Both the position numbers and the translations under genes were made by a program. A DNA stretch of 64,000 bases, taken from the IMG/VR virus record IMGVR_UViG_3300045988_121463; one strand, written 5' to 3'. Below, one piece after another: positions 2 to 50,400 of the stretch; the stretch's first letter is position 1; each line of letters begins with the position of its first letter. The notes beneath the pieces were generated by a model. It saw nothing but the letters and a program-made list of their open reading frames with translations, did no database searches and had not been told where the DNA came from. Source of the stretch: a virus.

Positions 2-379
2 GTACAATTGCTTGACGATGATAGCCGTGAAGAATCCGGAAGTGGGACATATTACGAACGTGAATGTGATGCGCTGTTTGACATTGACGGACGCGGCAAT
101 ACGGAACGCCTTGTAGCCAGAAATCCAAAATTGAGAAATCTGCTGGAAGATGGCGAGTATATACCATCTCTTGGTCAATTAAATTTAATGGCCCATTATA
201 TGAACGAACTAAACAAAGCATTCACTTATGTTTCGGCATCTCCCCTCTCCTCGACGTGGTATTGGTCCAGTACTGAGAGCAGCCAGGCCGTCGCGTGGTA
301 CGTGGTCTTCTCCAGTGGCCTCACGGGCACCGGCAACAAGCACATCGGAGACATGGTTCGGGCGGTAATTGATTTTTAA
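2..379 (+). CDS. DUF1566 (Lcl C-terminal-like) domain protein, C-terminal fragment; reading frame is open to the window edge
   Basis: Motifs IPSLGQLNLM ... YWSSTE ... AWYVVFSSG ... K ... VRAV match the DUF1566 signature (LPTxxEL...YWSST...AW...F..G...VRxV). No in-frame stop upstream, so the N-terminus lies outside the window. Confidence 0.5.
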   Translation, partial: VQLLDDDSREESGSGTYYERECDALFDIDGRGNTERLVARNPKLRNLLEDGEYIPSLGQLNLMAHYMNELNKAFTYVSASPLSSTWYWSSTESSQAVAWYVVFSSGLTGTGNKHIGDMVRAVIDF

Positions 380-25913: not shown

Positions 25914-25956
25914 TACAATAATCCCCGGCCATACAATAGGTGTACGGTTGGGGATT
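25914..25956. repeat. inverted repeat at the strand-switch point
   Basis: AATAATCCCC ... GGGGATTATT, 10-bp arms around a 23-nt spacer, in the convergent intergenic region. Confidence 0.5.
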
Positions 25957-26026
25957 ATTGTAATATATGATTAATAACCGTCTTATCTTATACTAATACA
26001 TTTTAGTACTATTTTTATATCTTTTA

Positions 26027-26476
26027 TTATAATTCTACATAGGTGTCAATAGGAACAAAGCTGCCAATTGTACTTATCTTATATATTGAATGAATAAGGT
26101 GAGTACTTGGACTTAATTTCAGTTGAGGTACTTGATTGGATCCTTCTGTAATAAAGAAATAATAAAAAACGTCTCCAATCGTAAACTGTAACATAATATC
26201 ACCTGTTACCGATCCTTCATTAAAGTAAGCCTGGATATATTGTCCAGAATTTGATATCGTACAATTTATAGGATTACCGCCCATCGTACATACCTTGCTA
26301 TTATTAATTTCATCTAAAACATAGGAAGCCGCCATAGTTGCTCCATTAGATCGGTATCTACAACCAAGAATAGGTACAGGATTTCGCCATGTGGTTGTAG
26401 GGGCCGAAATCGAACAAGCAAAAACAGGGATCTTGCCGCCAGCAACTGTATTAATATTTTCAAATCTTCTTCTCAT
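26027..26476 (-). CDS. MRRRF-family small protein (paralog A)
   Basis: Starts MRRRFENINTVAGG; the N-terminal motif is shared with two other ORFs. Confidence 0.45.
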   Translation of the reverse strand: MRRRFENINTVAGGKIPVFACSISAPTTTWRNPVPILGCRYRSNGATMAASYVLDEINNSKVCTMGGNPINCTISNSGQYIQAYFNEGSVTGDIMLQFTIGDVFYYFFITEGSNQVPQLKLSPSTHLIHSIYKISTIGSFVPIDTYVEL

Positions 26477-26480
26477 AATT

Positions 26481-27098
26481 TTATAAAATTAATTCAGTAA
26501 AAGGACGGACATAATGTGAACTACCCCTTGAACCTGTATCCAAATGATCTCCTTGGATGTTTATATCATAATACCACGAATAGGAAAATTTTTCATTTCG
26601 AGTGGATGTCCACATTCTATTACTCATTATCGTACCTCCTACCATTAAAAGGCATTCGTTTATTTCATTAGCATACAATGATATCAAAAAAAACTCTCCG
26701 GCGCCACCTACATATCCATTTTGACCATTTTTAAATAAATAGCTATTAGCTTTATTAAAAGCGTAATCTGTATTACTGGTATCATATTCAAGATACGCAT
26801 TCTGATTTTCACGCCCCCAATAATCCTTTTTAATAGTTCCCATATGAGAACTATCTTGTGCAAATATATTGTCTATTTCTCCATCCTTACCCCAACGAAA
26901 TGTGCCAATATATTCGGTGGCTATAACAAAACACACTTTATCTACAAGAGCTATTCCATTGCATAGATCATTGGAATATCCTTTATTAGACCAATTTTCT
27001 TTTGTATATAATCCTCCATCTACATGTTGGATGTATATGCCTTTATTGATTATAAGCGAGGGATTTACCCCCATCCCTATTTGAAATCTTCGTCTCAT
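26481..27098 (-). CDS. MRRRF-family protein with DUF1566-like C-terminus (paralog B)
   Basis: Start moved to the internal MRRRFQIGMG. C-terminus MWTSTRNE ... SHYVRPF resembles the DUF1566 YWSSTE ... VRxVR motif. Confidence 0.45.
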   Translation of the reverse strand: MRRRFQIGMGVNPSLIINKGIYIQHVDGGLYTKENWSNKGYSNDLCNGIALVDKVCFVIATEYIGTFRWGKDGEIDNIFAQDSSHMGTIKKDYWGRENQNAYLEYDTSNTDYAFNKANSYLFKNGQNGYVGGAGEFFLISLYANEINECLLMVGGTIMSNRMWTSTRNEKFSYSWYYDINIQGDHLDTGSRGSSHYVRPFTELIL

Positions 27099-27312
27099 GA
27101 TTTTTGTTTGCAAGATAGCAATAATTGACAACATAAAAGAAACCGGTTCCCTATCATCTCTGACTGAGAACCGGTAAGAAAACAATTTCAGAAAAAATTA
27201 AACCTACATAATCTTTCAAGTAAGAACAAAAAAACGTACAATCTACTCTTTGACGATGCTAATATAACATATTGGAATCATACAAAAACAATGCAAGTCC
27301 GATATTCTTCGT

Positions 27313-30300
27313 CTACTTGTAGCTAACATCATCGTCCCCTTCCGAATCAGGAGTAGCGCCGATGAAGAACATCATTGACTTGTTGTTCGTCTGCTGCCAC
27401 CAATTATAGGCGCGCGCTACGTCTTCCGGCGTCTTGATATTATACCATTGTTTGATAAACGTCTGTTTGGCGAGTTGCCTAAATAACTTAGACTCTCCCT
27501 TGTATGTACCGGATGTTACTTTATCAAGTGAATAATTCCTAAGATCGGTAAGATCCTTCAGTTTTCGCCCCATAACAAACGGATCGTTAATGATATCTAC
27601 CACGTTAAGCTCCATAATAAACGGCATCTGTGAAGCTATTTCGTTTATGGTTCTGAATCCGACATAGGATCCAAATTGAGTAAGCCAACTTTCTTCGTTT
27701 TCATCATCATCACGCCATCCGGCAAGAAGCATAGATACGGCCTGCATGATAAGGAACGTGCCGGCATAGACACTGAGACGTTTGAGATTGGTTTTTTCTA
27801 CCTCATTCATATTGTCTTTATTTTCATTCCAGGCATCTATGATGTTTTTCATACCAGACTCGGAAGCCAGGCTAAATGTTTTGGCTATCATATTCTTTAA
27901 CGTAATTGACAACCCTTCCTCTTCTTGCATTGTCTGGAAATTGAAGCCACGTCTTTTCCACAGACGTTGAGCCGACAGCACCAACCATCCTCGGTGGGCG
28001 GTCATGAACCTGGCTATCCAGTTGCGCGATGCGGCAGTTCGGTTTTCTTCATTCAAAGATCCGTTGCATATCTGCGACAAGCTACGAACTTGATTTCTGG
28101 TTATAGCCATCTGGGTTTCTACTTCCTCAACAGTAACACCCGATCCTGGCTTTACAACCACCTTCCCATCCACGACGTCTACCATACTCCATAAAGTACG
28201 ATCTTTTAATGCGTTCCATTCTCTTTTTATGGTACTCTGTTCTTTACCACGTTCTTTTTCCATCTTGAAATCTTGGAACGTGTAGAACCGGCCTTTGTAA
28301 TAACGAACATTGTCCATAGTAGCAATCATAACCTGCGGATCAAGAGGGTAGTTCAGGATTTCCATAAAAGCATACATAGGCGAACGCATTAAGGTCCTGG
28401 CCGCTCTATTGTATCCGGCACCATACATACGATTTCGGATATTGAATATCCCCATTCTCTCACCTATGACATATAATTTGCTTTTCCTATCTATGTCTCC
28501 GGTTTCTGCTATACAAGATGGAGCAAGGCGTGAAAATTCAGCCGATGCGTATTTAAGGGAGTCTTTGCTTATATACTGTCCTACGGCAGATTCCATGATG
28601 AGGTTGATATGACCTGTTAAGGCGCCGGTAGCTGCCACAAATGGAGACAGTGCCAAGTTCATGACCGACATAAACCTTTCAACAGCCATCATAATTCTTG
28701 TAAGGTCTACCGTATATCCTCCGATGTTCACCGTAAGTTTTTTGGTGTTCATCCTAATGCCATAATAATGATCGTTGAAGAAGTCCCTGAACATCTGATA
28801 TGCTTGGGTTGCTTCAGCCTTTTTACCACCTTCAAATTGTTTATTTAGTAACATCTGCTCCAGTCCTTGAGCGAGCTCTATAGACTTCTGCTTTTCGTTG
28901 TATAACGATGACTGCATCATAAGCATCGAATAAGAGTAGCCAAAATCGTGAGATACATCATCTTGGTTCTCCAATTCATATATGTAGTATTTAGGTATAG
29001 ACCTAAGCCTGTCTTCTGGATCATACACTTCTCCTTGCCTGGTCTTACCATATAGAGAATCGTCTACTCTGTCCAGGCACAGATCTGATACAAAATTACG
29101 AACCGTATTTTTGAAGTTAATACCCAATCCTTCTACACGTTCTATATCTTGTTTGGATATCTGTGGAATAGCATACAGGTTCGGGCTCTGCTCTTTGTAT
29201 AGATCAAGGGATTGTCTTTTTATTTCCTTGAGTTTTTGAATCATATTCCACTGCTCTACGTTTTTAGTAGCAACCTCATTACCGTCAGCATCATACTTGA
29301 TACCAAAGTCATTGAAATACGATTCGTCACGATACAGGCTTTTCTTAGGCATTCGATGACCATACCCATGATCTTTTACATAATCAGGATTACGACCGCT
29401 ATTTTCGGCTTCAGATTCAGCCACCCATGCCCTTGCAGGGTCGAAAGACAAGTACGATATGTCCATGCCATAATCTTGGGTGGATGTACCGTTTTGTACG
29501 TCCTTAACCATTTGCGCCACATCTATCTCACCTCGACCGATTTTGTCGATCATAGCTGCATATCCGGTAGGCGCCATGCGTTTATAGTACGAAAAAACCT
29601 GGCTTCTGGCAAATTCATTAACAATAGCATTAGCTTCTTCTACGCCCTCTTCTCTTGTATTATTTAAAAATAAGCTGGCCATCTTAGCATTAACAGCATT
29701 CCTGAAATCTCTACCGTCTAATTCTTTGCTTATACCAAGCTTTTCTGACAGGTAGTTGGTTTCAGATACGGTAAACAGATATCGGTTATCAGCAGCCTTA
29801 AACAGCTTATCCCTTAAAGCCTGAATCCTTTTTGCTTTCTTCGCCGTAGTATGACGTTGTACGAACTTCCATTCCACTTCCTTGGAGTCAGCAAGAGCAT
29901 TTAAATAAGACTGATTTACTTCGTTTTCAGCCTTACTGCTTTTAGTAAGGTACTTATCAATATCTTCAAGACCCACCATCTTAGCATAATCTATCAAAAT
30001 AGCGTAATCGGCTTCAATAGCTTCAGATGCGGCCCTAAAAGCATCTCTTTCAGATGAGGTAAATGTCGCTTCGTTAATCTCTCCGATATCAGCCACATCG
30101 CGATTGTTTCCGATTATTTCCTTGATAATAGCCTTATTTTTTTCTATATCTTTCACAATAGAATCCACGTCAGTCGCATCTCTATCACTTGTCGTAGAAC
30201 TAATGATATCATGCGCCATTTTAAGATACGAAGCCTTGTTATTTGATTCGGTACGTGCCGACTGTTCTGATTCTACATCATTCCAAAACCGATCGTTGAA

Positions 30301-33300
30301 TGACAGGTGACCTCCCAACATAAGTGTCTTCAGCGCAGCTTCTCCTCCAGACTCGCTCTGAATCGTTCTTAATTTTTGCAAAAACGATTCTGATACGGCA
30401 TTAGTGGCATTATTTGATTCCTTTCTCCAAACTTCATTTATAGCTTGTATTTCTTTGGCCATCTTAAGTTGGTCGCCGGTTTTTTCCACTCTCCTGGTTC
30501 CTACATATATGTATTCTGAAGCTGCTTCCTTACGTTGTTTACGAAGCAGTCCTTCTTCTTCGTAATTGCTGCTTTTAAAATAGGCAACCTCATCAAAATT
30601 ACCACCGCTATCAATAAAAGGCTGCCTCAATATCCGTTTTTGCCGGGATAGGGCATTAAGGTATTCTTTGGTTGTTTGAGAAACCGGATGCCCTAATTCT
30701 TCTTCAGCCTTTTTGTATATGGATTCCATTCTTGTGGCATAACTTTCGCTAAATTCCAGTTCCGAATTTTCAGCATCCCACTTTTCCATCTGCTCTGTAT
30801 AGATCTTTTCCTGCTCGATGGTAAAAATATCGGTATTAACTCTATCAGACGATGGTTTGAATTTAGCGTTTTCAGTAACCGTATTTCCATCCTTGTCAAC
30901 TACTTCTCTTTTAAATACGTAATTACGGTTATTGTCAACCACATCACCAATTTCTTCTTCTGATATCTCTATGTTCATGGCAGTCGCAAACGCTCGCATC
31001 TGCGCCAGCTTCTTATTACGATCGTATTTAGCCATATCAAGAGCACTACGAAGGTAATTAGAAGTTTTGCCGTCTACTTTCTGAAGCAGTTTTTCAAATT
31101 CAGATTTGTTAAAACCATGCTTTTTCGCATATGCCAGGAAGTCGGATATGGCGGGCTGGGCATTCACCATCGCATTGTAATTGTCTTTGGCAATCATAGC
31201 TCCAAGAGCGTTATTGAACAGACTGGAAGAATGCTCTAATATACCAAACCACCTACTTATCCAAGAAACATCGTGTTGAACCTTGTCAAAAAATTCTTTT
31301 ACTCTCTTTACCTTATCTGCCGGCACATGAAGTTCGTTCATTAACTTATCAAGCAACGTACTTTCATCAAGGTCTTGTACTGATTTAATATCAGACTGAA
31401 TACCATTGATGTCGGCAATGACGGTATTGATCCTATTTGTATAATCCTGCTTTTCACGTTCATCAAATTCGGTACTTCTGTTACGGATATATCCTCGAAG
31501 ATCGTTCATGATCGGAAGAACCTGATTGTTGATAATATCTACGTTCTTTCGATCATTGGTATTGAAGTGAAGCTTACCGTCTTTGGTATCACCATGAAGG
31601 ATGGTGTTCACCACATTACTTAAGTATCTGACCTGAGCTTCGGCTGTAGAGATCATGCTATTCATGGCAGCCGCCATCTCATTCTTGTCTATTTCGGTCT
31701 CTACCTTATTTATCTTATCTTCTATGGTCTTAAGCTGGGCAAGGGTCATAGACGTAGTTACAGCCCTATCAGAGCTTATCTGACGTAAGTCTCTTAACGT
31801 TTTTCTCAATGCCCGGATCTTAGACTCAAGAAACTTGTTCTTGTTCATAGAAGAAAGGGAGTATAATGTAAAATCATTATCCTTTAACAGAGAGGTATCA
31901 AATCCTTTATCTATGTCGGTAATAGCAAGATCACGAATGTTTTTAATAACGTTATTCAAATCTTGTCTTTGGGTAGATAAAGCTGATTTAAGCCAGCTTA
32001 CGATTCCAGAGAGAAGCTGCCGGACGCGCCCCAGGAAGGAGGTGGGCTCTACCGGCGCCTGTGCTGTGCCGGTCTGCATCTCCCTGGCGAGGATCTTTCC
32101 AAGAATTTCTCTCCTAACAGCATTATCAAGTTCAGAGCCTTCATATACCTTACCGTATGTATTATAATACTGACCTGCATACTGATTCCATTCTTCAGTG
32201 CCTTCTACATCTTGCAAAACAGATTCAACAGCATTCTGATCTCTATACGCCTCTACGAGAAAGTGTGCTGTTTCTTCTACTAAGTCAGACAAAGTAGCAT
32301 CTTCACCGACTGCTATTACGTTATTGGCAATATCCGCCAATGCCTTAGCAGAAGGTTCGTGTCCGTATTTAGTTTGGTACTTCTCTATATAATCGGTCAT
32401 GCCAACGACACTAACGCCCAGCGTTTTCAGTATCTCAACAATAGAATTTCGTTGGTCACGTTCCTCTTGGCTATAATCTGATACGATCTTAGCTTTAGTA
32501 TCAGCATAAAGATCGTTGTCTTCTAATATGAATGAAACTACAAGCGCATCAAAATGATCGTACTTAGCATCCAATTCATTGTATCTTCCTGACTTAAGAT
32601 CGTTCTTTATCTGCTCTTTGCTAACCCTTTCCGTTCCTCCGGTGGCGAGTCTCATAGTCACCTTACTATTATCCAACGAGCTTATGGTTATCATACCCTG
32701 GTCGTTCATGGAAACATCGGAACCAAAATGATTACGGAGCTCGGTGTAGGATAATGCCGAATTGAAAAGTCTAATTTGTCCTGTATGTCCTTCTCCTGCA
32801 ATATAATAGCTTCTTGTTTCCGGATCGAATATCTTGGATCCGGACAAAAGACCTTTCTTTATAAGGTAGTTAATTATACCGCCTTTTGTTGATAAAGAAG
32901 TAGAAGCAGAAGCGGTCATGACCGGTATAAAAGACTTGGGATTATTAAGAACATACTTTCCAGCTTTGTAAGTAATGTCTGCCACGCCATCCACGGCAGA
33001 TTCTTGAACGGTGCCGGATAAGAATCCTATTCTAATATCATTCCCTCCAGAGCGAAGAGCTTCTCCGTAATCTTCAAATAATTGACTACGATCGTTCATG
33101 AAAAACAAACGAGGCTCTCCGGTCTGATACGTTACACCCACAGGATTAGAATCTGTCTGTGGTAACTCTTCTGGGCTAAATATCTTAAGACCGTCTTTTA
33201 TAACCATATAATTAACACCCTTATCCTGTACCATAGATACGGGAGTAAAGTCCGAAGATATAGCATCTTGTAGATACTGCCCGGCGTCTATCCCAGGTCC

Positions 33301-33735
33301 TTCCGGTACGGAAATGCTTGACGTAACCATAGCATCCACCAACATAATATTATCACCCAGATTTTGGCTGTAGAATCCAAAGCCCGATTCTTGGATTTCA
33401 TAAGGTGCATCTGATTTTGACACAAGAACAGGGTTACTCATCTTAGACGCCTTATCCAGCACCCTTTCTCTATAGGCTTCTGGGATAAGGTCGATGTTAG
33501 ATTTTACCTTATTATAAGCCTGTTTATTAACAGGTACATTCCTTCTCCAGTCACCAAAAGCCTTTAAGAACTTATTAGAAAATACGGTTTTAAAAACAGT
33601 AGTAGCCCGTTCCCTATTCTCCATAAGAGGAATAGATGCTATTTTATCAAACAACATAGACCTGTCCCCTGATCTGGTAGAGACAGAAACAACTTTCTTT
33701 TTATTATCTCTTTTAATAATACACGTTGATGTCAT
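27313..33735 (-). CDS. giant virion/tail-associated protein (2140 aa)
   Basis: 6.4-kb uninterrupted ORF in the minus-strand block of giant genes. No catalytic motif recognised. Confidence 0.6.
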   Translation of the reverse strand: MTSTCIIKRDNKKKVVSVSTRSGDRSMLFDKIASIPLMENRERATTVFKTVFSNKFLKAFGDWRRNVPVNKQAYNKVKSNIDLIPEAYRERVLDKASKMSNPVLVSKSDAPYEIQESGFGFYSQNLGDNIMLVDAMVTSSISVPEGPGIDAGQYLQDAISSDFTPVSMVQDKGVNYMVIKDGLKIFSPEELPQTDSNPVGVTYQTGEPRLFFMNDRSQLFEDYGEALRSGGNDIRIGFLSGTVQESAVDGVADITYKAGKYVLNNPKSFIPVMTASASTSLSTKGGIINYLIKKGLLSGSKIFDPETRSYYIAGEGHTGQIRLFNSALSYTELRNHFGSDVSMNDQGMITISSLDNSKVTMRLATGGTERVSKEQIKNDLKSGRYNELDAKYDHFDALVVSFILEDNDLYADTKAKIVSDYSQEERDQRNSIVEILKTLGVSVVGMTDYIEKYQTKYGHEPSAKALADIANNVIAVGEDATLSDLVEETAHFLVEAYRDQNAVESVLQDVEGTEEWNQYAGQYYNTYGKVYEGSELDNAVRREILGKILAREMQTGTAQAPVEPTSFLGRVRQLLSGIVSWLKSALSTQRQDLNNVIKNIRDLAITDIDKGFDTSLLKDNDFTLYSLSSMNKNKFLESKIRALRKTLRDLRQISSDRAVTTSMTLAQLKTIEDKINKVETEIDKNEMAAAMNSMISTAEAQVRYLSNVVNTILHGDTKDGKLHFNTNDRKNVDIINNQVLPIMNDLRGYIRNRSTEFDEREKQDYTNRINTVIADINGIQSDIKSVQDLDESTLLDKLMNELHVPADKVKRVKEFFDKVQHDVSWISRWFGILEHSSSLFNNALGAMIAKDNYNAMVNAQPAISDFLAYAKKHGFNKSEFEKLLQKVDGKTSNYLRSALDMAKYDRNKKLAQMRAFATAMNIEISEEEIGDVVDNNRNYVFKREVVDKDGNTVTENAKFKPSSDRVNTDIFTIEQEKIYTEQMEKWDAENSELEFSESYATRMESIYKKAEEELGHPVSQTTKEYLNALSRQKRILRQPFIDSGGNFDEVAYFKSSNYEEEGLLRKQRKEAASEYIYVGTRRVEKTGDQLKMAKEIQAINEVWRKESNNATNAVSESFLQKLRTIQSESGGEAALKTLMLGGHLSFNDRFWNDVESEQSARTESNNKASYLKMAHDIISSTTSDRDATDVDSIVKDIEKNKAIIKEIIGNNRDVADIGEINEATFTSSERDAFRAASEAIEADYAILIDYAKMVGLEDIDKYLTKSSKAENEVNQSYLNALADSKEVEWKFVQRHTTAKKAKRIQALRDKLFKAADNRYLFTVSETNYLSEKLGISKELDGRDFRNAVNAKMASLFLNNTREEGVEEANAIVNEFARSQVFSYYKRMAPTGYAAMIDKIGRGEIDVAQMVKDVQNGTSTQDYGMDISYLSFDPARAWVAESEAENSGRNPDYVKDHGYGHRMPKKSLYRDESYFNDFGIKYDADGNEVATKNVEQWNMIQKLKEIKRQSLDLYKEQSPNLYAIPQISKQDIERVEGLGINFKNTVRNFVSDLCLDRVDDSLYGKTRQGEVYDPEDRLRSIPKYYIYELENQDDVSHDFGYSYSMLMMQSSLYNEKQKSIELAQGLEQMLLNKQFEGGKKAEATQAYQMFRDFFNDHYYGIRMNTKKLTVNIGGYTVDLTRIMMAVERFMSVMNLALSPFVAATGALTGHINLIMESAVGQYISKDSLKYASAEFSRLAPSCIAETGDIDRKSKLYVIGERMGIFNIRNRMYGAGYNRAARTLMRSPMYAFMEILNYPLDPQVMIATMDNVRYYKGRFYTFQDFKMEKERGKEQSTIKREWNALKDRTLWSMVDVVDGKVVVKPGSGVTVEEVETQMAITRNQVRSLSQICNGSLNEENRTAASRNWIARFMTAHRGWLVLSAQRLWKRRGFNFQTMQEEEGLSITLKNMIAKTFSLASESGMKNIIDAWNENKDNMNEVEKTNLKRLSVYAGTFLIMQAVSMLLAGWRDDDENEESWLTQFGSYVGFRTINEIASQMPFIMELNVVDIINDPFVMGRKLKDLTDLRNYSLDKVTSGTYKGESKLFRQLAKQTFIKQWYNIKTPEDVARAYNWWQQTNNKSMMFFIGATPDSEGDDDVSYK

Positions 33736-35400: not shown

Positions 35401-35676
35401 CTATAAATTTAATATTCCGTTTTTACCAATATGCTTCTTCTCTTCTTCAGTAGGCCATTCTTTCTTGAACTTACCATGCCACGTTCCAGGAACTACCACC
35501 ACTTCGTCTCCCTTACTATATTCAATAGCGGCACATTCAGAACAAAGAGGCTTGCCTTCATATCCCTTTAGCGACTTATCGTAAATACGATTCTTACAAG
35601 GTCTTATAAGAGCCCAATAACAGGATGTGGCTGTATTATCTATACAGCCACATTTTGAACAAACAAACAAACTCAT
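35401..35676 (-). CDS. zinc-ribbon protein
   Basis: CSKCGC ... CSEC. Confidence 0.4.
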   Translation of the reverse strand: MSLFVCSKCGCIDNTATSCYWALIRPCKNRIYDKSLKGYEGKPLCSECAAIEYSKGDEVVVVPGTWHGKFKKEWPTEEEKKHIGKNGILNL

Positions 35677-41634: not shown

Positions 41635-43893
41635 TTACCTGCATTCCAATTTATTAAGATCATCCAATTCAGACTTGCTTACGGTCATGTCTTGCGTCAA
41701 GCCAGATCTGTTTTGGTATGGAGCGTAATCAGTTTCTACCGTCTTAGCCTTCTGAGTAGAATCGTATTTCACCTCCGATTCGGTTCCTGTCAGATTTTGG
41801 TAGATAGAGCCGGAACTACTCTCGCTTACTTTAGACCATATCTTATTACCTACTCTTATAAAATTATCATAAATACCTTCTGCTGTTATAACACCATCTT
41901 GCTCTACGATATTAGAACCCGATTTTTCTTTTAACAAATACGGGTGCCTGGTGTAAAAATAGTGTTCAAAATCATTCCCAGCATACGAAGGGTCATACCT
42001 CTCCAAATAAAACAATTCTGATAAAGAAGGGTCGGTACTGGTCATGCTATAATCAAACAACATCAACCTGTCTTTTCCAGATAAAGATAATTCTATTGAT
42101 TTCAAAATATCAGGATCATCAGAAATAAGACCCAAAGATGGACCAGGTTTGAAGTCAAGATACTTATAGGCATTATCATATAATTTTGTTTTATGGAGTT
42201 TGTTGTCAAGGTAAGATTGGTATAAATCGAATAAGGATAATGGGTTTTCGCTATCTTGTTTTTTGTTCATGTATCGACTATACTCCCGATCCACATCCAC
42301 GTAAGGAACGTCAAGTACCGCAGGGTGCCCAAACGCCATCCTGGTCATTATCATGTCCTCTGTGTTCTGAGAATCCATGAACGATCTGACGTATTTTTTA
42401 ATGGAAGCCATGAGCGTATTATTATCTACGTTCCGTACTTTCTCTTTATCCAAAACGCCGTTCTTAAAACAAGATTCAGGATATATTTTAGTAGAAAAAT
42501 GAGTTAGGTTGTGCTTGGCTAATACTGTTGATATTTGATACATCTCGTTAAGATCATCTTTGCTGATCCTTTGATATAGATTATCTCCTACCTTAAGCAA
42601 TGAATGTTTCTCAAATGCCTCTACTGGGTCTATATCGGATTCAGAATAAACGATATTCAAATTATCCATATACTCCGGCAATAATCCAAAATAATAGTCT
42701 GTACTATCACCAAGAACATCATCTATAGAAGATGCCAGCGTTGGAGCATAATTTACATCATTATGCCTGGCCACATAAATATCAAGATCCAGCATCAAAT
42801 TATCTATCTTATTCAAAGATTCTTCTGTGCCATCATAAGTTTCCGATGTCCCTATTATATCTATGCCAAACCACGTACAAGCCTCTTCTATATCCCATAT
42901 CATGCTTCTTAAATCGGATTCGGTGTCGGCATTAGCCCTATGTAAATAAGCTGATATACGAGCTCTTAGGAACTCTATTTTGCCAGGATTGTAATAAGAC
43001 AGATCTTGTAGCTTAGACAAGGATCTTCTCTTGCCTTCTACCACATCATCCCCTTCTATGTTTATTACCGGAATCTTATTCGTAGATGAGAACTCATCAA
43101 ACATAGATTCGGCAAATTCTTTATCAGAAACGAATTTCTCAACCAGTTCAGGGTATGAGTTTCTCAACGATTCAAAAGCAGATGAAAATTCAGAAAAGTT
43201 TTTTATGCCGGCTACTGTTTTGCCCATAGCCCAATAAAGCTCAGAAGGATTATATGGTACTTTTTTACCAAATTGGTTAAACACTCCCTCCTTGTAAACA
43301 ATAGGACCATACTGATAGTCAACAGACATAAAATAATTATCCTTTTCCCTATCATGTTCGTTAATAGAAGAATCTATTAACTTTCTCATGGAAGTCGAAA
43401 CCTCGTTTAAAACAGAAGGATCGGATAAAATACGACTTATTTCTGTTTCATCATACAAACCGGATCTCCTTAATTTCTGCTCATTCAGTATCAAACTGCC
43501 ATCTACATAAAAATCGAAGAGGATAGCATTAGACAATGAAGACGCATTGAAAAAATAATGAGTAGACAAAAGGAAATCCCTTACATCCTTAATGTCCTGA
43601 GCCGTTAAAGGATCAGCAAAATAAGTCTGACGCTTCATATACGACAGCACGTCTTCTAAAAGAGGTTCGCCATTGGGATCGGTATTAAACATCTCCCCTG
43701 GAGCCGGGTTGTTCCAATGACCGTAATACGACAAAAAACCAGGAGTGTAAGCCTTAGCCCATACCTGAAGGGCCCGCTCGCTGTTTCCTAATACTTTTAA
43801 AGCACTTTCGTAAAGAACGGAAGGCTCCCCGTTAGGAGCCTTAACCCGTTTTATTTCATTTTCCTTTTTTTCTATCTGACATTTGACACCCAT
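41635..43893 (-). CDS. large virion-associated protein (752 aa)
   Basis: Long ORF in the structural-type block. Confidence 0.55.
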   Translation of the reverse strand: MGVKCQIEKKENEIKRVKAPNGEPSVLYESALKVLGNSERALQVWAKAYTPGFLSYYGHWNNPAPGEMFNTDPNGEPLLEDVLSYMKRQTYFADPLTAQDIKDVRDFLLSTHYFFNASSLSNAILFDFYVDGSLILNEQKLRRSGLYDETEISRILSDPSVLNEVSTSMRKLIDSSINEHDREKDNYFMSVDYQYGPIVYKEGVFNQFGKKVPYNPSELYWAMGKTVAGIKNFSEFSSAFESLRNSYPELVEKFVSDKEFAESMFDEFSSTNKIPVINIEGDDVVEGKRRSLSKLQDLSYYNPGKIEFLRARISAYLHRANADTESDLRSMIWDIEEACTWFGIDIIGTSETYDGTEESLNKIDNLMLDLDIYVARHNDVNYAPTLASSIDDVLGDSTDYYFGLLPEYMDNLNIVYSESDIDPVEAFEKHSLLKVGDNLYQRISKDDLNEMYQISTVLAKHNLTHFSTKIYPESCFKNGVLDKEKVRNVDNNTLMASIKKYVRSFMDSQNTEDMIMTRMAFGHPAVLDVPYVDVDREYSRYMNKKQDSENPLSLFDLYQSYLDNKLHKTKLYDNAYKYLDFKPGPSLGLISDDPDILKSIELSLSGKDRLMLFDYSMTSTDPSLSELFYLERYDPSYAGNDFEHYFYTRHPYLLKEKSGSNIVEQDGVITAEGIYDNFIRVGNKIWSKVSESSSGSIYQNLTGTESEVKYDSTQKAKTVETDYAPYQNRSGLTQDMTVSKSELDDLNKLECR

Positions 43894-43919: not shown

Positions 43920-44450
43920 TTATAAAACCGACTTATACAATGACGGATCCCAAATTCCTTCTATATAAATCTCCGGAAAACTCAAACTGCCATCACGAAG
44001 AGTGGTGACTTCCAAGCTGGGAATGTTGAAAACAGTACTGGTATCACCAAACCCACCATTCAACTTGATAGCATTTCCGCTGTTATTAGCCTCATAATAA
44101 AAATAACAATAATTTTCATTAATGCTTGGATCATATTCGTACCAATATGTTAGATCTTGTATATGATCTTCTATGTTACCAATTTTGTTTTCACCTAATA
44201 TAAAAATACCATTATTGCTATGATTATAAACCATAGATTCATAACCACCATGATTCCAATTACTATTAAACATTATGTAACTAACATCAGAATCATGATC
44301 TTTTAATACAGGTCCTATATGTATATGAATTTTATTAAACTGACATACATAAGGTCTTTTTCCTCCAAGCCTTTTTATATCTTCATTGGATAACTTATTA
44401 TAACATCCTCCCACGAAATTATCCGCAGCATTAAAAAATCTCCTTCTCAT
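43920..44450 (-). CDS. MRRRF-family small protein (paralog C)
   Basis: Start moved to MRRRFFNAADNFVGG, 2 nt after the stop of the upstream giant gene. Confidence 0.45.
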   Translation of the reverse strand: MRRRFFNAADNFVGGCYNKLSNEDIKRLGGKRPYVCQFNKIHIHIGPVLKDHDSDVSYIMFNSNWNHGGYESMVYNHSNNGIFILGENKIGNIEDHIQDLTYWYEYDPSINENYCYFYYEANNSGNAIKLNGGFGDTSTVFNIPSLEVTTLRDGSLSFPEIYIEGIWDPSLYKSVL

Positions 44451-44452
44451 AC

Positions 44453-47400
44453 TCAACACTCCTTATTTAACTCATTTATCGAATCCGAATTATCAGAACC
44501 TTCTACGAGATTCTTATTCCTATCTATCTCTTCCTGACTCATGTTACTCATCATATTTTGTATTTTTCTACCAGATTGAGATAAAGAGCGGATGAATGCA
44601 CTGGAACTTATCTTAACTCCAAGATCCGGTTTTGCCCTAAACGCTTCACCGGTACTGATATTATACAAATCATACACACCTGAGTTCATATAGAATTTAT
44701 ATATCCAGTTTCCACCAGCTTTTTTGTACCCTAATTTGGTTAACTCGACTACACTCATACCAAATTTAATGCCATTACGACCCATTATCTTCTCAGGTAT
44801 CTGTTCTACCTTAGCCGGAACAGATGTATATGCTTCATCACCGCCGTACAGAAAATAAGGGGTTGTTACCCTTGATATGTGAGTAAGCGGTTCTTCGGAT
44901 ATACGAGGTTCGTCTTTTTCTATTTCTCCTTTTGTAGATCCAGGTAATTCGACATTTCCTTCAACTTCGACATTTGTTCTGGATTGTCCTTTGCCTTCTC
45001 CATCTCCCTTTTTATCGCCATCTTCCTCAGTGCGTACTGCACCGCCTTCTGCACTTCCTTCTTTTCCATCATTTAAAATATTATCTGATTCTGACTCTAT
45101 AGACTCCACAACAGCATCATACTCTGGTATGCCGCTAAGGAAATCTGCTACGTTATTCAAAAACTCTATTTTTTCCTCGTTTGTCATATCAAGGCTTTCC
45201 ACGGGCCTCCATATGGCAGGCAAGTTGTTTGATTTTATTGCAGTAGAAACATCTTCTACAGTTTTATTATCCACCGTAGGCAAAACTTTAGAAACCAAAC
45301 TATTGATATCAGATTCCATTTTTTCTACTTCCTCTTTTGTGCCATATTCTTTTAGGGTATCCATGCCATTGACTCTAAGAGAATAATTTAAAGCCTTACT
45401 TGGAACAAAATTAATATATTTCAAAAAGTTTTTCAACTCTGATATAATTTGTTCATCAGATCTTGGACCAACATAATCAACCACCACCTGATCTGTTTGA
45501 GAACGAAGCCAAGAAATGTATTCTTCTAAAGTCTTACCACCTTTACTGGAAGGAGTGGATATTTTATCACCTACTGTTCCTTTAGGTTCTAATCCCATTT
45601 CCTCCTTAAGACTTTTAGGATTACCTCTCTCACGAAGAAACCTCAAATCACCTCCTACAATCTTCCTTGCTATAAAATCAAAAATATTAGCATAAGGCGG
45701 CAATCCCTCTTTTTCTATATGAGATTCTATTTCGTTTAACATAAGAGAGAAGTTTTTCCTGGAGGTACGCTTCTTGCCAGGTAAAGACTGCGCATCTTGT
45801 GCCGCAGGAGCCGGCTGAGCTAATGGCGCCGTCTGAGTCTCCCGGGCAGCCCCTTCCTCTGGCATTTCCTCTTCATAAACATCCACGTATTCTTTAGAAG
45901 TAACGGTCTTACCCTCATCAGAGAAAGGAAGATCATCCTCTATAAGTGATTTAGGTCTGGAAGATGATTTACCAAACTGAATCCTGATCTTAGGAGCGAC
46001 AAACATCTCACCTTCGAAATCTATTCCAGATTCTACTTCAGACGTCACAATGTCTTTCACATTCCTGCTTTCATCTTCTACCCATTTAACAACATCAGGA
46101 ACCGTAGATAATTTTTCTATAGCCTCACGAGCTTTTCTAAGCCCTGAAATAGGATTCAAATACGATACTTGATACGAAGCCGGATCAAGGCCTAACTTGG
46201 TTAGATACGCATTAAGATCTTGTATATCATCTTGACCCATCTGTAGCAATTCAGAATCACCGGATTCAAGCAGCATATCTATAAAAGACATCCATTTCCG
46301 CCCTTCCTCTGATTCCACAGAACGCAGGCTAACTGGGAAAAGATAATTAAGACCGTTTTTACCTTTGATGACAACTACCGGAACTCTTACATTTTTGTAA
46401 TTATTCCCCTTGTCATTTAATATAGAATAAGCAAATGGGAAGCCTGTGTATTTAGATCCGTTCTTAAGCACGACTTTGCCATTTAATACATATCCGACAT
46501 CAGATACTTTTTCAGCACCTTTTTCGGTAATAGGGAGATTTTCTACCTGGCCATATCCTTGACCGTTCACCTTCATGTTAAACACCGGTCTTCCGGGAAG
46601 GGTCTGGGCAACAACATGCGTGCCGACGCCGATGGTAGCCGACCGGCCGGCGTCCTTCTTCCACTTGTTAAAAGCCGTTCTTCTTATCTTACTTATACCA
46701 TCTATGCCTCCTGTGTCAGCTTTTACAACAGAAACGAATCTGTTTCCACTCATGACCTTGATAACCATATTGGACACCAGTTTATTCTCAGCAGATTCTA
46801 TTCTTTTTTTATCGCCGGACTGAACAGCATCATTGTATTCGGCAAAAAGAGACTGATTATAGGTATCATTTACATCTATTTCGAGATTAACCTTATCTCC
46901 TTTTTTCAAAGAAGATAATGCTTCCTGATCTATTTTATCTACCTCATTATCTCCGAATCCGACACCCGTTCTGTACGGAACCAACTCATCTGAATCAAGA
47001 CGCTTATAAACCAAAGAATAGGAATTACCCACGTCCTGAATAGACACATCTGTGTAGCGATTAAGAACACGAGCCGATTCTTTGTCTATAGACCATCTCG
47101 CATGATAAGGAAGTTCTATCACGGTAGCCGTTTCTCCACCTATGTTAAGGAAATACCTTTTAGTTCCATTAGCGTTCGTTTCAGAACTTATTTGAATAGG
47201 AACCAATGATTTTATTGAAGATATAAATTTATCGGCTCTAAGACCTGCAATTTCATACCTTTCATTGCCGTCATTGGAGATTCTTCTCACCATCAACGTC
47301 TCTGGATTCTGGGCGCTATCTATATTGGCTCCTGGCGTATTATCGGATTCATCTAACTCATTTACAAGAGAATCTATATTAGCATCATCTTCCCCAAAAT

Positions 47401-50400
47401 TACTCAACGTAGATTCAGAGATACGACCTTTGTCAATAATCCTGTTTTGTTCAACATAAGGAAGGAGATCCGTGATGTTTCCAACCTGGCCAAGATCTTC
47501 TATGGTAAATACCGAATCAGCAAGCTTATCTTCGTCAACTTTCTCCCCTTTGTCCCGTCTGTTCATTATATCCACATACGAAGAAATAGCATCATCAAGT
47601 TCCTGCCTTTGATCTGGTTCCAAATTTGATTTAGCCATATCAATAATGATCTTATTGTCCTCATACACAGATCGAGGTTCAGTAAGTCTCTTAACTTTAT
47701 CCGATAAATCTTTTATCATCTTAGCCGGACTATCACCAAGATATGATATATAATCATCAATATCCTGTTTATACTTTTCATATATCTCCTTCTCCCTTGG
47801 AGATAAAAGATCTTGATTACCTGTATATATCTTATCTACGATACGTTCTCTAACCTCTATAGGTGCAGACAAAAGATCTTTCATTGCCAACTCATAATCA
47901 AAATCAGACAATATATCCTCTTTCGGCTTCTGAGTTATACCATCGTTTAGATGACCAAATACTTTCATGGTAAATGCTTCATCTAAATTTATTTCTCCAT
48001 TATTCAGAAGTTCATCTATTTTTTCATCCAAACTGACATTATTACCCTCTGTCTGATAAAAACGATCACTTTCTATAGATTCAGTATTAGAAGATACCAT
48101 ATCATTTAAGAACTTAGAAAATAAAGAAAAATCATGTCTCATGAATTTCTTATCCTGTATGGAGTTCATAAATGACCGTAAAACCTTATATTGGGTAATG
48201 GCTTGCTGATATTTCACAACCATATTTCTTAAATCCTCTGCTTCTTTCTTTCCTTTATTATTCTCAATATAAGTACTTAAAGAAGCTACGGAGTCATAAG
48301 CCTTCAATATATCTTCAGCAGTTATCGTTTCAGATTTAAACAACTCAAGAGCTAATACTCCAGGATCAAAAGAATAAAATACTTCTTTATAACTACTAAG
48401 AAGTTCTTCTGACAACCTTCTATATTCCTTATTAAGATTATCGTATTTAATAGTTTTTTGTTTTATAGCCTCTGCTTCGGTATCATTGCCATCCTCTACT
48501 CTTCTCGGAGTTGTAGCCAACCTCTCTATTTCAGCATTCAGATCATTGATCTCATTACGCAATTCCCTTAACTGATTAGCTGTATCAAAAGCTTGACTTG
48601 ATAATGAATAAAACGTATTTATATCATCAAACAAATTATTGTCATTTACATAATCAGCAATATCATTTGATGCTTCCATTGCTATATCCTCTGCATCCAA
48701 CCCCTTAAAAACAGCATTAGCAACATTAGATCGATAAAGATCAGATGAAGTCTCAGCAGTAATAGCCTCAGCAAAAGAAGAAGCTTTTTTATAATTGGCT
48801 AACTTCTTATCAAAATCTTTTATAATATCTTCCTTATATTTTTTGACAGTTTCTTCATCTACTTTCATTTCAGAAGCCAACTCACTTTCGTCAAGGCTTT
48901 TAACCATTGACCTGAAATTGTTAGCCGTATCCTCTAACATTCCCATTCTGTCAGATAATTCAAATTTAGAATAATAATCTGATTCAGGATCATTCATTTG
49001 AGCATTAAATTCGGCTAAATTTCGCATAGAGTCTTTTACAGATTGAGAAGTAAAAGCATTATTACTATTAAATTTCTCAACATCAGTATTAATAGTACGT
49101 TCTTTATTTCTCCTTTCATATAAACCAAAAGCACCATTTCTGGCTCCAAATAAACCACCAATCAGGGATCCTATACCAATCTCTTTCAATCCTTCTTTGG
49201 TTGTAAATTGTTCAGCTATGGCCTTAGAAAAAGAATCAACTATAGAAGACGTAGCATCAAGATACGTCTTATCATATCTTGATCTAATAAAATCTTCCCC
49301 CATGCGCTGAGCAACACCTTGCATGCCTTCCTCCCATACGCCTTCAGATATGGGCCTTTTAGACACATTCCAGACAGTAGCTAAGGATTTCTGGAATAAA
49401 TTTGCTTTTAATGTCTGTAACCTTCCAGCATCACCCGCTACCTTCTTAGTTCCTAATCCAAACAAATAACGATCTATAAAACTCTTTGATCCTCCATATG
49501 TATCTGATACACCCTTTAATCCAGGTATGTATTTAGAAGCAAAACCAGTGTCTACTCCAAGATATTTTCCCAGAAGGAGATAATTGGATAATCCAACTAT
49601 ACCCATATTGGCTAAAAATATGCTGTTTGCTGTATCGGAAATAGAACTCTTAAATTCAGCCATCTCGGACTGATTAGGATTCCGACCATACATATTTTTA
49701 AAATATTCTTTGTATTTACTTTCAGAGTCTTTCATGAAGGACTGAGCTTCCACAGCAGACTCCCAGCCGGCTCCCACGAACGTATTTACTCCTACCTTGG
49801 CCATATTGCCGATAGCTCTGCCGTACATCGCTCCTGCTCTATACGCTCCAAAAGCGGATTTTACAGCACTTGCTGCAATCTTAGATGCTGCCATCTTGCC
49901 GGCCACTTTCATCCCTACTTTAGCGCCAACAGCTCCAAGACTTGACACGCCCATCCCACCTGTAAGGTAGGCAGACAGAATAGCTCCTGTCGTAAACGAT
50001 AGACCATTTCCAATAACATCATTAAAAATAAAATTTGCAGTTCCAAGACTCTGCAAAAATCCCATATCACGCTCTTCTCTTGTATAATAATGAGGAAGAG
50101 AGTGGTTTATTCTTTCATCTATATCATTTATGGTCCGTGTAAAATCATTGTCAAATGCAGAAGATAACGTACCAGTCTTTATAAGATTATACGCAGCCGG
50201 GATAATACCTACTACTCCTGATACACCATATAATGCTGTTTTTGTTACAAGCTTTCCTATGCCATTAACAGCCTTATTCCAAGTAGTTTGCCTTCTTCCG
50301 TAATAATCTTCATTATCCCTTCCTGGCATATAACTTTTAAACTTTGCAAGACCGATGTTTCCATCGGATAAAAAGTCATATGCTTCATCTAACTTAATAG

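What the first reader, a model, noticed from the sequence alone, without database searches (positions are those of the whole stretch)
26027..27185. Paralogous MRRRF-start proteins, two with DUF1566-type domains (third copy at 43920-44450; related domain at 8-379)
Three minus-strand ORFs begin with the same ATG AGA (A/C)G(A/G) AGA TTT codons, giving MRRRF followed by a similar N/A/G-rich segment, but then diverge completely. One carries a DUF1566-like C-terminus (WTST ... HYVRPF). The fragmentary + strand ORF at the window start has the canonical DUF1566 signature (YWSSTE ... AWYVVFSSG ... VRAV). A shared short N-terminal module on divergent C-terminal domains is the classic layout of swappable receptor-binding or tail-fibre tips. 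Copy C sits right after the 2135-aa gene and copies A and B right after the 2140-aa gene.
Basis: partly seen in the sequence, partly recalled or inferred. Interest (0 to 1): 0.5.

Follow-up and report, generated by a model that had tools for sequence, protein, structure and literature searches.

The report
Shared MRRRF tag on swappable proteins
In a human-gut crAss-like phage, three unrelated small genes begin with the same five amino acids (MRRRF); other proteins of this phage group, some of them adhesin-like, carry the same tag, and the genes behind it are swapped, lost or broken between near-identical phages, so it is probably a docking tag for optional virion attachments, though that is unproven.

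Summary
The core observation holds. Three minus-strand ORFs start with ATG AGA (A/C)G(A/G) AGA TTT, giving MRRRF: A at 26481-27098, B at 26027-26476 and C at 43920-44450. That is 3 matches against 0.07 expected by chance.

The window is an epsilon crAss-like phage, 96% identical to crAssE-Sib. The ORFs lie in the late virion and cargo gene block.

The three proteins are not paralogues. Profile comparison aligns only residues 1-7.

The tag is conserved at protein level, because the codons differ. At least ten unrelated families carry it at three hypervariable slots. These include a Gly_rich_2 protein with the fold of a phage fibre tip and a DUF5977+BACON protein.

Among near-identical relatives the ORF bodies are replaced from codon 5 onward, duplicated, fused, deleted or pseudogenised. 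dN/dS is 0.19 for C and 0.7-0.9 for A and B.

The DUF1566 call is sub-threshold: A scores 11.3 bits and ORF 8-379 scores 23.9 bits, against a cut-off of 34.9.

My best reading, at about 0.4, is a short basic N-terminal docking tag on interchangeable, dispensable virion-surface adhesins. The rivals are a cargo-packaging tag, a passive recombination scar, and a Tat-like signal.

I class it as a new variant of a known kind, of moderate interest.

The parts
26481..27098 (-). Gene A, 205 aa. It starts MRRRFQIGMG and has a weak DUF1566/Lcl_C-like motif in its C-terminal half (GAGEF...MWTST...YVRPF).
   Evidence: ORF and start. Lcl_C E 0.43, 11.3 bits. hhalign against ORF 8-379: P 8.5e-4. The family is restricted to this lineage. 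dN/dS 0.92. Intact in 32, disrupted in 25 and absent in 19 of 76 relatives.
26027..26476 (-). Gene B, 149 aa. It starts MRRRFENINT and begins 4 nt after A's stop. No domain was found.
   Evidence: No Pfam hit. 81 homologues, all from the same lineage. dN/dS 0.73. In relatives it is replaced by 242-245-aa MRRR[FY]ENN proteins.
43920..44450 (-). Gene C, 176 aa. It starts MRRRFFNAAD and begins 2 nt after the stop of the 2135-aa gene. It is an orphan.
   Evidence: Only same-lineage hits among 1.84 billion representatives. dN/dS 0.19. It is replaced by, or sits in tandem with, an unrelated 192-aa MRRRY protein in relatives. Independent inactivating lesions occur in 13 relatives.
27084..27098 (-). 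Tag codons of A: ATG AGA CGA AGA TTT.
26462..26476 (-). Tag codons of B: ATG AGA AGA AGA TTT.
44436..44450 (-). Tag codons of C: ATG AGA AGG AGA TTT.
44433..44438 (-). T6 tract formed by the Phe-Phe codons right after the Arg codons of C. It is a recurrent site of +1 frameshifts in relatives.
   Evidence: five relatives carry T7.
27099..27312 (-). Intergenic leader between the 2140-aa gene and A. Its reading frame is not conserved between relatives.
27313..33735 (-). 2140-aa virion structural or cargo-type protein upstream of A and B. Context only.
   Evidence: phrog_37651, E 2.9e-75. Annotated as a structural protein in crAssE-Sib. The C-terminal 500 aa are 99-100% conserved, with dN/dS 0.01.
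44453..50860 (-). 2135-aa structural or cargo-type protein directly upstream of C. Context only.
   Evidence: phrog_32390. Annotation.
41635..43893 (-). 752-aa conserved gene. It forms the right-hand boundary of the C cassette slot.
25914..25962 (.). 22-nt-arm inverted repeat between the convergent gene blocks, downstream of B. It is probably a bidirectional terminator closing the late operon.
   Evidence: sequence.
2..379 (+). C-terminal about 125 aa of a 278-aa early-region protein, with a sub-threshold DUF1566/Lcl_C signature. It is not an MRRRF protein.

Best explanation
MRRR[F/Y], or more generally M-x(0-2)-[R/K]3-hydrophobic, is a short, basic, flexible N-terminal address tag. Epsilon crAss-like phages, and at least one Suoliviridae crassvirus, place it in front of many unrelated, mostly small, binding-type domains.

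My best guess is that the tag docks these proteins non-covalently onto the virion. The site could be a tail hub, a fibre or a capsid pocket. Any body placed behind the tag would then become an optional virion-surface adhesin.

Genes A, B and C are three lineage-specific members. They sit in two of three 'landing-pad' slots of the late operon: after each giant structural gene, and upstream of the muzzle gene.

Shown:
- The tag is real and is conserved at protein level.
- The bodies are unrelated.
- The slots turn over by cassette replacement, unequal crossover, fusion, deletion and pseudogenisation.
- Some tagged proteins have fibre-tip or carbohydrate-binding domains.

Inferred:
- That the tag mediates virion attachment.
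- That A, B and C are virion-surface proteins.
For: 1. Conservation is at protein level. The second Arg codon is CGA in A, AGA in B and AGG in C. The Gly-rich member uses ATG AGG CGT CGT TTC, and a divergent B allele uses AGA AGA AGG.
2. In 98 Gly_rich_2 homologues of 50-88% identity, 74 have RRR within the first 7 residues and 87 have at least 3 basic residues in positions 2-8. R3 is at least 90% conserved while positions 5-14 vary.
3. crAssE-Sib has only 5 genes of this kind genome-wide. All lie in the late virion gene block.
4. At least ten unrelated families carry the tag.
5. Some tagged proteins have adhesin character:
   - Gly_rich_2 scores 60.3 bits against a cut-off of 24.3.
   - Its AlphaFold model has pLDDT 89.9; the first 10 residues are low-confidence and the first strand starts at residue 12.
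   - The best fold matches are the Bxb1 tail tip (E 2e-5) and the Pam3 fibre gp24 (E 1.5e-4). BFVD hits include minor tail, baseplate and collagen-like fibre proteins.
   - A 772-aa MRRRF protein has three DUF5977 and two BACON domains.
6. In another crAss-like lineage, three tandem MLR[RK]-tagged genes sit inside the tail-fibre cluster. In the Suoliviridae phage cr1_1, the MLRRRT Gly-rich gene sits among probable fibre genes, just upstream of the lysis genes.
7. There is precedent in crAss001. The tail fibre gp22 docks by residues 1-26. The small head fibres gp21 and gp29 dock by their N-termini and carry variable C-terminal binding domains. The authors expect uncharacterised analogues in groups that lack gp21 and gp29 (PMC10172136).
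8. Dispensability and turnover fit accessory fibres or decorations.
Against: - There is no proteomic or structural evidence that any tagged protein is in the virion.
- Five to seven residues is very short for a docking element. Known crAss001 anchors are 26-58 residues, and the tag shows no similarity to them.
- A, B and C have no confidently identified domain. The AlphaFold model of A has pLDDT 31.
- A and B evolve nearly neutrally, with dN/dS 0.7-0.9, and are often broken. They could be decaying remnants.
- The window copies lie in the cargo gene block, not the fibre block.
- A second epsilon-like lineage has no such ORFs within 10 kb of the homologous 745-aa gene.
Confidence: 0.4

Rival explanations
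1. Cargo-targeting tag. The basic N-terminal peptide directs small, variable effector proteins into the capsid or tail cargo zone, to be ejected into the host with the giant cargo proteins. This would resemble the conserved N-terminal capsid-targeting sequence shared by the otherwise unrelated, hypervariable internal proteins of T-even phages (from my knowledge of T4 biology).
For: - A, B and C lie immediately after the two giant structural or cargo-type genes.
- In lineage L251, two tagged Gly-rich genes also lie between giant genes.
- The genes are small, dispensable, hypervariable and recurrently inactivated. That pattern is expected for effectors in an arms race with host defences.
- The tag is basic and could follow DNA or acidic cargo.
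- Epsilon crassviruses lack the gp45 cargo protein, so their cargo sets differ (PMC10172136).
Against: - The identifiable domains behind the tag are extracellular binding types. These are a TNF-like plus polyglycine fibre tip, BACON, DUF5977 and possibly a lectin-like domain.
- In other lineages the tagged genes sit in fibre clusters.
- There is no conserved protease site after the tag. Position 6 is Q in A, E in B and F in C.
Confidence: 0.2
2. Passive scar. The shared start is just the conserved edge of the slot, meaning the translation start context plus the recombination junction. New ORF bodies recombine in behind it. The peptide itself would have no function.
For: - Cassette breakpoints coincide with the tag. 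C and C' share the upstream sequence through ATGAGAAGGAGAT and then diverge. B and B' share it through ATGAGAAGAAGAT[TT/AC]GAAAAT.
- In L107, A is deleted so that its leader joins B' at the MRRRF codons.
- Chimeric A/B, A/B' and MSRRRY/Gly-rich proteins exist.
- A and B show weak constraint.
Against: - The same peptide is encoded by different codons.
- It occurs at three loci with unrelated upstream sequences.
- It is conserved across 98 diverged Gly_rich_2 proteins and across crassvirus families.
- The tandem C+C' arrangement arose by unequal crossover elsewhere, not at the tag.
Confidence: 0.12
3. Export signal. RRxF is the core of a twin-arginine (Tat) motif. B has VFAC and C has VGGC, which resemble lipoboxes. 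The proteins would then be exported or lipidated in the infected cell.
For: - The sequences MRRRF...PVFAC (B) and ...FVGGC (C) are visible.
- A divergent B allele, MRRRFLSYDLFQTIIPVFAVSISAP, is fairly hydrophobic.
Against: - Most families have charged or polar residues directly after the tag and no 12-20-residue hydrophobic core. Examples are MRRRYEDVSS, MRRRFLIKNRELED and MRRRFENNAKLYEY.
- In the confident Gly-rich model the folded domain starts at residue 12.
- There is no conserved AxA or lipobox across families.
Confidence: 0.04
4. Decaying junk. A, B and C are non-functional remnants kept open by chance.
For: - dN/dS is 0.92 for A and 0.73 for B.
- There are many truncated or frameshifted copies.
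- The A/B locus is empty in 12 of 76 relatives.
Against: - C and C' are under purifying selection, with dN/dS 0.19 and 0.26, comparable to 0.14 for the neighbouring 752-aa gene.
- Intact ORFs of 149-205 aa persist in a 38% G+C genome.
- The start is retained while the upstream frame drifts.
Confidence: 0.1

Closest known systems
Detachable fibre-tip adhesins: Pam3 gp24, S16/T2-type gp38 and the Bxb1 tail-tip glycine-rich proteins
   Same: - These are small stand-alone proteins (about 230-280 aa). Their distal TNF-like plus polyglycine domain recognises the receptor, and a short N-terminal element attaches them to the tail (PMC9608196).
- The tagged Gly_rich_2 protein of this phage group matches these folds.
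   Different: - The docking element here is about 10 flexible basic residues, not an alpha-helical domain.
- A, B and C do not have this fold or any detectable homology to it.
- Virion association has not been tested.
crAss001 head fibres gp21 and gp29, and tail fibre gp22
   Same: - They belong to the same virus order.
- They are small proteins that dock by their N-termini (residues 1-38, 1-58 and 1-26) into capsid hexon pockets or tail hubs, and they carry variable C-terminal binding domains.
- The epsilon group has no detectable gp21 or gp29 homologues, and analogues are expected (PMC10172136).
   Different: - There is no sequence or profile similarity.
- The anchors in crAss001 are folded segments of 26-58 residues.
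- There is no evidence that those genes are exchanged as cassettes.
T-even phage internal proteins sharing an N-terminal capsid-targeting sequence (from my knowledge, not tested here)
   Same: - A short conserved N-terminal peptide sits on otherwise unrelated, dispensable, hypervariable small proteins.
- These are encoded in a plastic region next to virion genes.
   Different: - The T4 tag is cleaved by the prohead protease at a conserved site. No such site is conserved here.
- The domains behind the tag here look extracellular.
Pfam Lcl_C / DUF1566
   Same: A, the A-like 218-aa MRRRF protein and the ORF at 2-379 all give weak hits to the same C-terminal part of the profile. The motif order matches: P-x-x-x-E-[LF], then W-[ST]-S-T, then V-R.
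   Different: - All scores are below the 34.9-bit cut-off: 11.3, 14.9 and 21.8-23.9 bits.
- No structure could be obtained to test the fold.

Membership tests
Pfam PF07603 Lcl_C (DUF1566) | HMM score at or above the gathering cut-off of 34.9 bits | tested here: not met
   A: 11.3 bits, E 0.43. B and C: no hit. ORF 8-379: 23.9 bits. Its full-length homologue: 21.8 bits. The A-like 218-aa protein: 14.9 bits.
Pfam PF07603 Lcl_C (DUF1566) | Shared fold, or profile-profile homology with a family member | tested here: inconclusive
   hhalign of the A profile against ORF 8-379 gives probability 24% and P 8.5e-4 over 57 columns. The AlphaFold model of A is unusable at pLDDT 31. The profile finds no PDB sequence match.
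Pfam PF21722 Gly_rich_2 (fibre-tip TNF-like plus polyglycine domain) | HMM score above the 24.3-bit cut-off, plus a fold match to solved fibre tips | tested here: not met
   A, B and C give no hit and share only residues 1-7 with the Gly-rich family. The feature is met only by the extra-window MRRRF protein: 60.3 bits, with Foldseek matches to 9d93 and 7ypx.
Phage receptor-binding or tail-fibre tip cassettes | Alternative unrelated C-terminal bodies occupy the same slot behind a conserved N-terminal element in related phages | tested here: met
   C and C', and B and B', are alternatives with defined breakpoints. Chimeras and tandem duplications also occur.
Phage receptor-binding or tail-fibre tip cassettes | The protein is a virion component that binds a host surface receptor | not testable with these tools
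   No proteomics or cultured host is available for this phage. The paper on crAssE-Sib lists these genes as hypothetical (PMC11054128; annotation).
crAss001 fibre families (gp21, gp29, gp22) | Detectable sequence or profile homology | tested here: not met
   hhalign of all six tag families against gp21, gp29 and the gp22 N-terminus gives probability at most 2.9%. The N-termini differ.
T4-type capsid-targeting-sequence proteins | A conserved N-terminal peptide followed by a conserved protease cleavage site | tested here: not met
   The tag is present, but the residues after it are not conserved between families (Q, E, F, L, Y). No common cleavage motif is visible.
Tat signal peptides or lipoprotein signals | RR motif followed by an uncharged hydrophobic core of 12-20 residues and an AxA site or lipobox | tested here: not met
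   By inspection only the RRxF core fits. Most families have charged residues straight after it. The folded domain starts at residue 12 in the Gly-rich model.

The most novel reading that the evidence does not exclude
Epsilon, and some other, crassviruses may possess a general plug-in system. A basic N-terminal address of 5-12 residues (M-RRR-hydrophobic) would be sufficient to mount essentially any domain on, or in, the virion. Three hypervariable landing pads in the late operon would continually sample new adhesins or effectors by cassette exchange. On/off switching would come from homopolymer slippage and start-codon loss. That would be a previously unrecognised modular host-range and tropism system in the most abundant phages of the human gut, and a natural display tag for engineering them.
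Probability: 0.25. Interest if true: 0.7.

Novelty: new variant of a known kind. Interest (0 to 1): 0.5.

Why it matters
Crassviruses are the dominant phages of the human gut, yet how they diversify their host or mucus binding is poorly known, and the epsilon group has no cultured member.

A tiny conserved N-terminal tag shared by at least ten unrelated protein families would do three things:
- It would give a concrete handle for predicting which 'hypothetical' genes are virion accessories. The families sit at three rapidly turning-over slots.
- It would explain strain-level variation between otherwise 99%-identical phages.
- It would allow designed display of foreign domains on crassvirus particles.

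If the tag instead marks ejected cargo, it would identify a pool of candidate anti-defence effectors.

Tried and rejected
- AlphaFold2 on A with 8 homologues gave pLDDT 31, which is unusable.
- The A profile found nothing among PDB sequences.
- PHROGs gave nothing for A and C, and only a marginal tail-fibre hit for B at E 0.051.
- Homologue searches for A and B, and a scan of C against 1.84 billion representative proteins, found only same-lineage proteins and fragments.
- I looked for the tag in crAss001 virion proteins. gp22 starts MFFTQEDY and nothing similar was found. hhalign against gp21, gp29 and gp22 was negative.
- A second epsilon-like lineage, anchored on a 30%-identical 745-aa homologue, has no RRR-tagged ORFs within 10 kb.
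- Literature searches for 'csAssE', 'MRRRF' and 'MRRRY' found nothing relevant. The crAssE-Sib paper does not discuss these genes.
- The 1.3-kb insert next to C' in some relatives gave no Rfam hit. It turned out to be a TnpB-type gene.
- The sigma-70 promoter scan was uninformative: 6 sites against 10 expected, and the probable host is a Bacteroidota member.
- I considered and rejected a Tat or lipoprotein signal, because there is no hydrophobic core.
- I considered and rejected a purely DNA-level repeat, because the codons differ.
Full report
**What is there.** The window (38% G+C) is 96% identical over 92% of a 20-kb test stretch to phage crAssE-Sib (OR575929, named 'csAssE-Sib' in the record). 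That is a 151-kb epsilon crAss-like phage from human gut, proposed genus Epsilonunovirus, with prophage relatives in Parabacteroides (PMC11054128). Its annotation shows the crassvirus hallmarks: muzzle protein, ring proteins, BACON proteins and a diversity-generating retroelement. The minus-strand genes of the window from about 26 kb to 63 kb are the late block that follows the muzzle gene. They include giant 'structural' proteins of 2135 and 2140 aa (PHROG virion structural protein), an 823-aa tail-lysozyme protein and others.

**The observation.** Three minus-strand ORFs start with ATGAGAMGRAGATTT, which encodes MRRRF.
- A is at 26481-27098 (205 aa).
- B is at 26027-26476 (149 aa).
- C is at 43920-44450 (176 aa).

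The 15-mer occurs 3 times against 0.07 expected. No other ORF in the window has such a start. C starts 2 nt after the stop of the 2135-aa gene. B starts 4 nt after A. A starts 214 nt after the 2140-aa gene.

GenBank annotates the MRRRF start. In relatives the stretch upstream of the ATG changes reading frame through an A-run length change, while MRRRF is kept.

**The three proteins are not paralogues.** All-against-all profile comparison aligns only residues 1-7 between the A, B and C families. The 'N/A/G-rich' resemblance after the tag is not significant.

**DUF1566.** Pfam Lcl_C (DUF1566) has a cut-off of 34.9 bits.
- A scores E 0.43, 11.3 bits.
- The ORF at 8-379 scores E 5.5e-5, 23.9 bits.
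- That ORF is the C-terminal end of a 278-aa early-region plus-strand protein, cut by the window edge, and it does not start with MRRRF. Its full-length homologue also scores below threshold, at 21.8 bits.
- A profile of A aligns to this ORF with P 8.5e-4 but only 24% probability.
- An A-like 218-aa MRRRF protein found elsewhere gives E 0.034 against the same part of the Lcl_C profile.
- The AlphaFold model of A was unusable (pLDDT 31), and the profile found no PDB sequence match.

A lectin-like DUF1566-type C-terminal half in A is therefore plausible but not demonstrated.

**The tag is conserved as a peptide, not as DNA.** The second Arg codon is CGA in A, AGA in B and AGG in C. A divergent B allele uses AGA AGA AGG. 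A further MRRRF gene in crAssE-Sib uses ATG AGG CGT CGT TTC.

Genome-wide, crAssE-Sib has only five genes starting M(S)RRR[F/Y], and all are in the late virion block. They are A, B, a 192-aa MRRRY protein (C') at the C position, and two genes just upstream of the muzzle gene: MSRRRY (153 aa) and MRRRF (240 aa).

The 240-aa protein is a Pfam Gly_rich_2 domain protein (E 3.6e-16). Among 98 full-length homologues of 50-88% identity:
- 74 have RRR within the first seven residues;
- 87 have at least three basic residues in positions 2-8;
- R3 is at least 90% conserved while the next ten positions vary.

The same leader (MLRRRTIGSKK...) heads the Gly_rich_2 protein of the Suoliviridae phage cr1_1.

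**Many unrelated bodies sit behind the tag, at three hypervariable slots.** I fetched 80 close relatives around each of three anchors; the anchor proteins were 94-100% identical.

At the C slot:
- C is either present, replaced by the unrelated C', or in tandem with it.
- The left breakpoint is right after ATGAGAAGGAGAT. The right one lies in the roughly 25-nt spacer before the 752-aa gene.
- The tandem form arose by unequal crossover. It joined the first 27 nt of the 752-aa gene to the last 33 nt of the giant gene.

At the A/B slot:
- B alternates with 242-245-aa MRRR[FY]ENN proteins (B'). These share a roughly 40-residue N-domain with C' (P 3.6e-5) and have at least two different C-terminal halves.
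- A can be deleted so that its leader joins B' at the tag (L107).
- A/B and A/B' chimeras exist.

At the slot upstream of the muzzle gene there are further tagged families:
- MRRRFENVNMAMG (169 aa);
- the A-like MRRRFEFDNNS (181-218 aa);
- a short Gly-rich variant;
- a 772-aa MRRRF protein with three DUF5977 and two BACON domains (E 3.4e-46 and 7.4e-12).

TnpB/IS605-type elements insert in the same slots.

**Selection and dispensability.** Pairwise dN/dS among relatives:

| Gene | dN/dS |
|---|---|
| C | 0.19 |
| C' | 0.26 |
| B | 0.73 |
| B' | 0.85 |
| A | 0.92 |
| 752-aa gene (control) | 0.14 |
| C-terminus of the 2140-aa protein (control) | 0.01 |

Occupancy of the slots:
- Of 76 A/B loci, 12 are empty. 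A is intact in 32, disrupted or partial in 25 and absent in 19.
- Of 75 C loci, 16 carry only disrupted copies.

C is knocked out by independent lesions in 13 relatives:
- five by T6 to T7 in the tract formed by the Phe-Phe codons right after the tag;
- two by A5 to A6;
- one by another single-base insertion;
- two by loss of the ATG;
- one by a nonsense codon;
- two by deletions.

C-type genes are therefore real and constrained when present, yet repeatedly discarded. A and B are weakly constrained or diversifying.

**What the tagged proteins look like.**
- The Gly-rich MRRRF protein models confidently (pLDDT 89.9, pTM 0.89). The first ten residues are of low confidence and the first strand starts at residue 12, so the tag is a free N-terminal arm.
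- Its best solved matches are chains of the mycobacteriophage Bxb1 tail tip (E 2e-5), the cyanophage Pam3 fibre gp24 (E 1.5e-4), and the ALK glycine-rich domain.
- Pam3 gp24 is a minimal tail fibre. [quoted passage not shown] It resembles the gp38 adhesin tip of phage S16 (PMC9608196).
- In BFVD there are 209 matches, including minor tail proteins, baseplate components and collagen-like fibre proteins. The domain often sits in longer proteins there.
- In a different 180-kb crAss-like contig, three tandem genes start MLRKRT, MLRRSI and MLRRCL. They have a B'-like N-domain, a Gly_rich_2 domain and a C'-like body. They sit inside the fibre cluster next to Fibritin_C- and BclA_C-like genes and a retroelement reverse transcriptase.
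- In another lineage, two tagged Gly-rich genes lie between giant genes, as in this window.

**Mechanism.** The best-supported reading is that the tag is a short basic N-terminal address that mounts interchangeable accessory binding modules on the virion. This rests on four things:
- the adhesin character of the identifiable bodies;
- the restriction of tagged genes to the late block;
- their placement in fibre clusters in other lineages;
- the crAss001 precedent.

In crAss001, tail fibre gp22 docks by residues 1-26. The small head fibres gp21 (97 aa) and gp29 (122 aa) dock by their N-termini into hexon pockets and carry variable binding domains. Analogues are expected in groups that lack them (PMC10172136).

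Dispensability fits head-fibre-like decorations or auxiliary fibres better than a primary receptor-binding protein. This step is inference. There are no proteomic data, the tag is much shorter than known anchors, and there is no similarity to gp21, gp22 or gp29.

**Rivals.**
- A cargo-packaging tag like the T4 capsid-targeting sequence. It fits the position next to giant cargo genes and the arms-race-like turnover. It fits the extracellular-type domains poorly.
- A passive scar of the slot edge. It fits the breakpoints. It is contradicted by codon variation and by conservation across diverged families and loci.
- A Tat or lipoprotein signal. Only the RRxF core fits.
- Decaying junk. This is possible for A and B, but not for C.

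**Novelty.** I found no description of this tag. The principle of a conserved N-terminal element with swappable bodies is known for phage fibres and for T4 internal proteins. What differs here is a roughly 5-residue basic tag spread over at least ten unrelated families at three landing pads in crassviruses. I class it as a new variant of a known kind, with moderate interest (0.5), limited by the lack of any direct evidence for function.

Noticed in passing
window 61509-63143 (-), 63259-63332 (-), 63405-63477 (-), 63528-63632 (-): There is a TROVE/Ro60-like 544-aa gene (Pfam E 7.8e-14). Immediately upstream on the same strand lie tRNA-Lys and tRNA-Asp, and a sub-threshold YrlA (Y-RNA-like, RF02553) match at 28.5 bits against a gathering score of 69, E 8e-4. 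This may be a phage-borne Ro60 plus Y-RNA module.
   Followed up: partly
window 35673-36539 (-): A 288-aa protein combines a WDGH domain (E 1e-36) with a Tad2-like Thoeris anti-defence domain (E 2.6e-11). It lies inside the late block.
   Followed up: no
L011 2733-3905 (-); L028 2702-3934 (+); L133, L153 and L161 at the A/B locus: TnpB/IS605-type genes of 383-410 aa are inserted in the same hypervariable slots that hold the MRRRF cassettes in some relatives.
   Followed up: partly
window 44433-44438 (-): The T6 tract right after the tag of gene C is T7 in five relatives, which is a frameshift. An A5 tract at nt 74 of the gene is A6 in two others. This could be slippage-based on/off switching or recurrent decay.
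   Followed up: partly
L014 3296-3380: The spacer between tandem C and C' contains the first 27 nt of the 752-aa gene fused to the last 33 nt of the giant gene. This is the footprint of an unequal crossover between two phage genomes.
   Followed up: yes
window 391-1197 (+): A 268-aa P-loop ATPase of the SMC_N / AAA_21 (AbiEii-like) type lies next to the DUF1566-like early gene.
   Followed up: no
window 25914-25962: A 22-nt-arm inverted repeat (86% complementary, 5-nt loop) sits between the convergent early and late gene blocks. It is probably a bidirectional terminator.
   Followed up: no
L250 4506-5735 and L162 45751-47816: Diversity-generating retroelement components (a reverse transcriptase, and annotated VR/TR repeats) lie in the fibre clusters of crAssE-Sib and of a distinct 180-kb crAss-like contig. 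They are close to the tagged genes in the latter.
   Followed up: no
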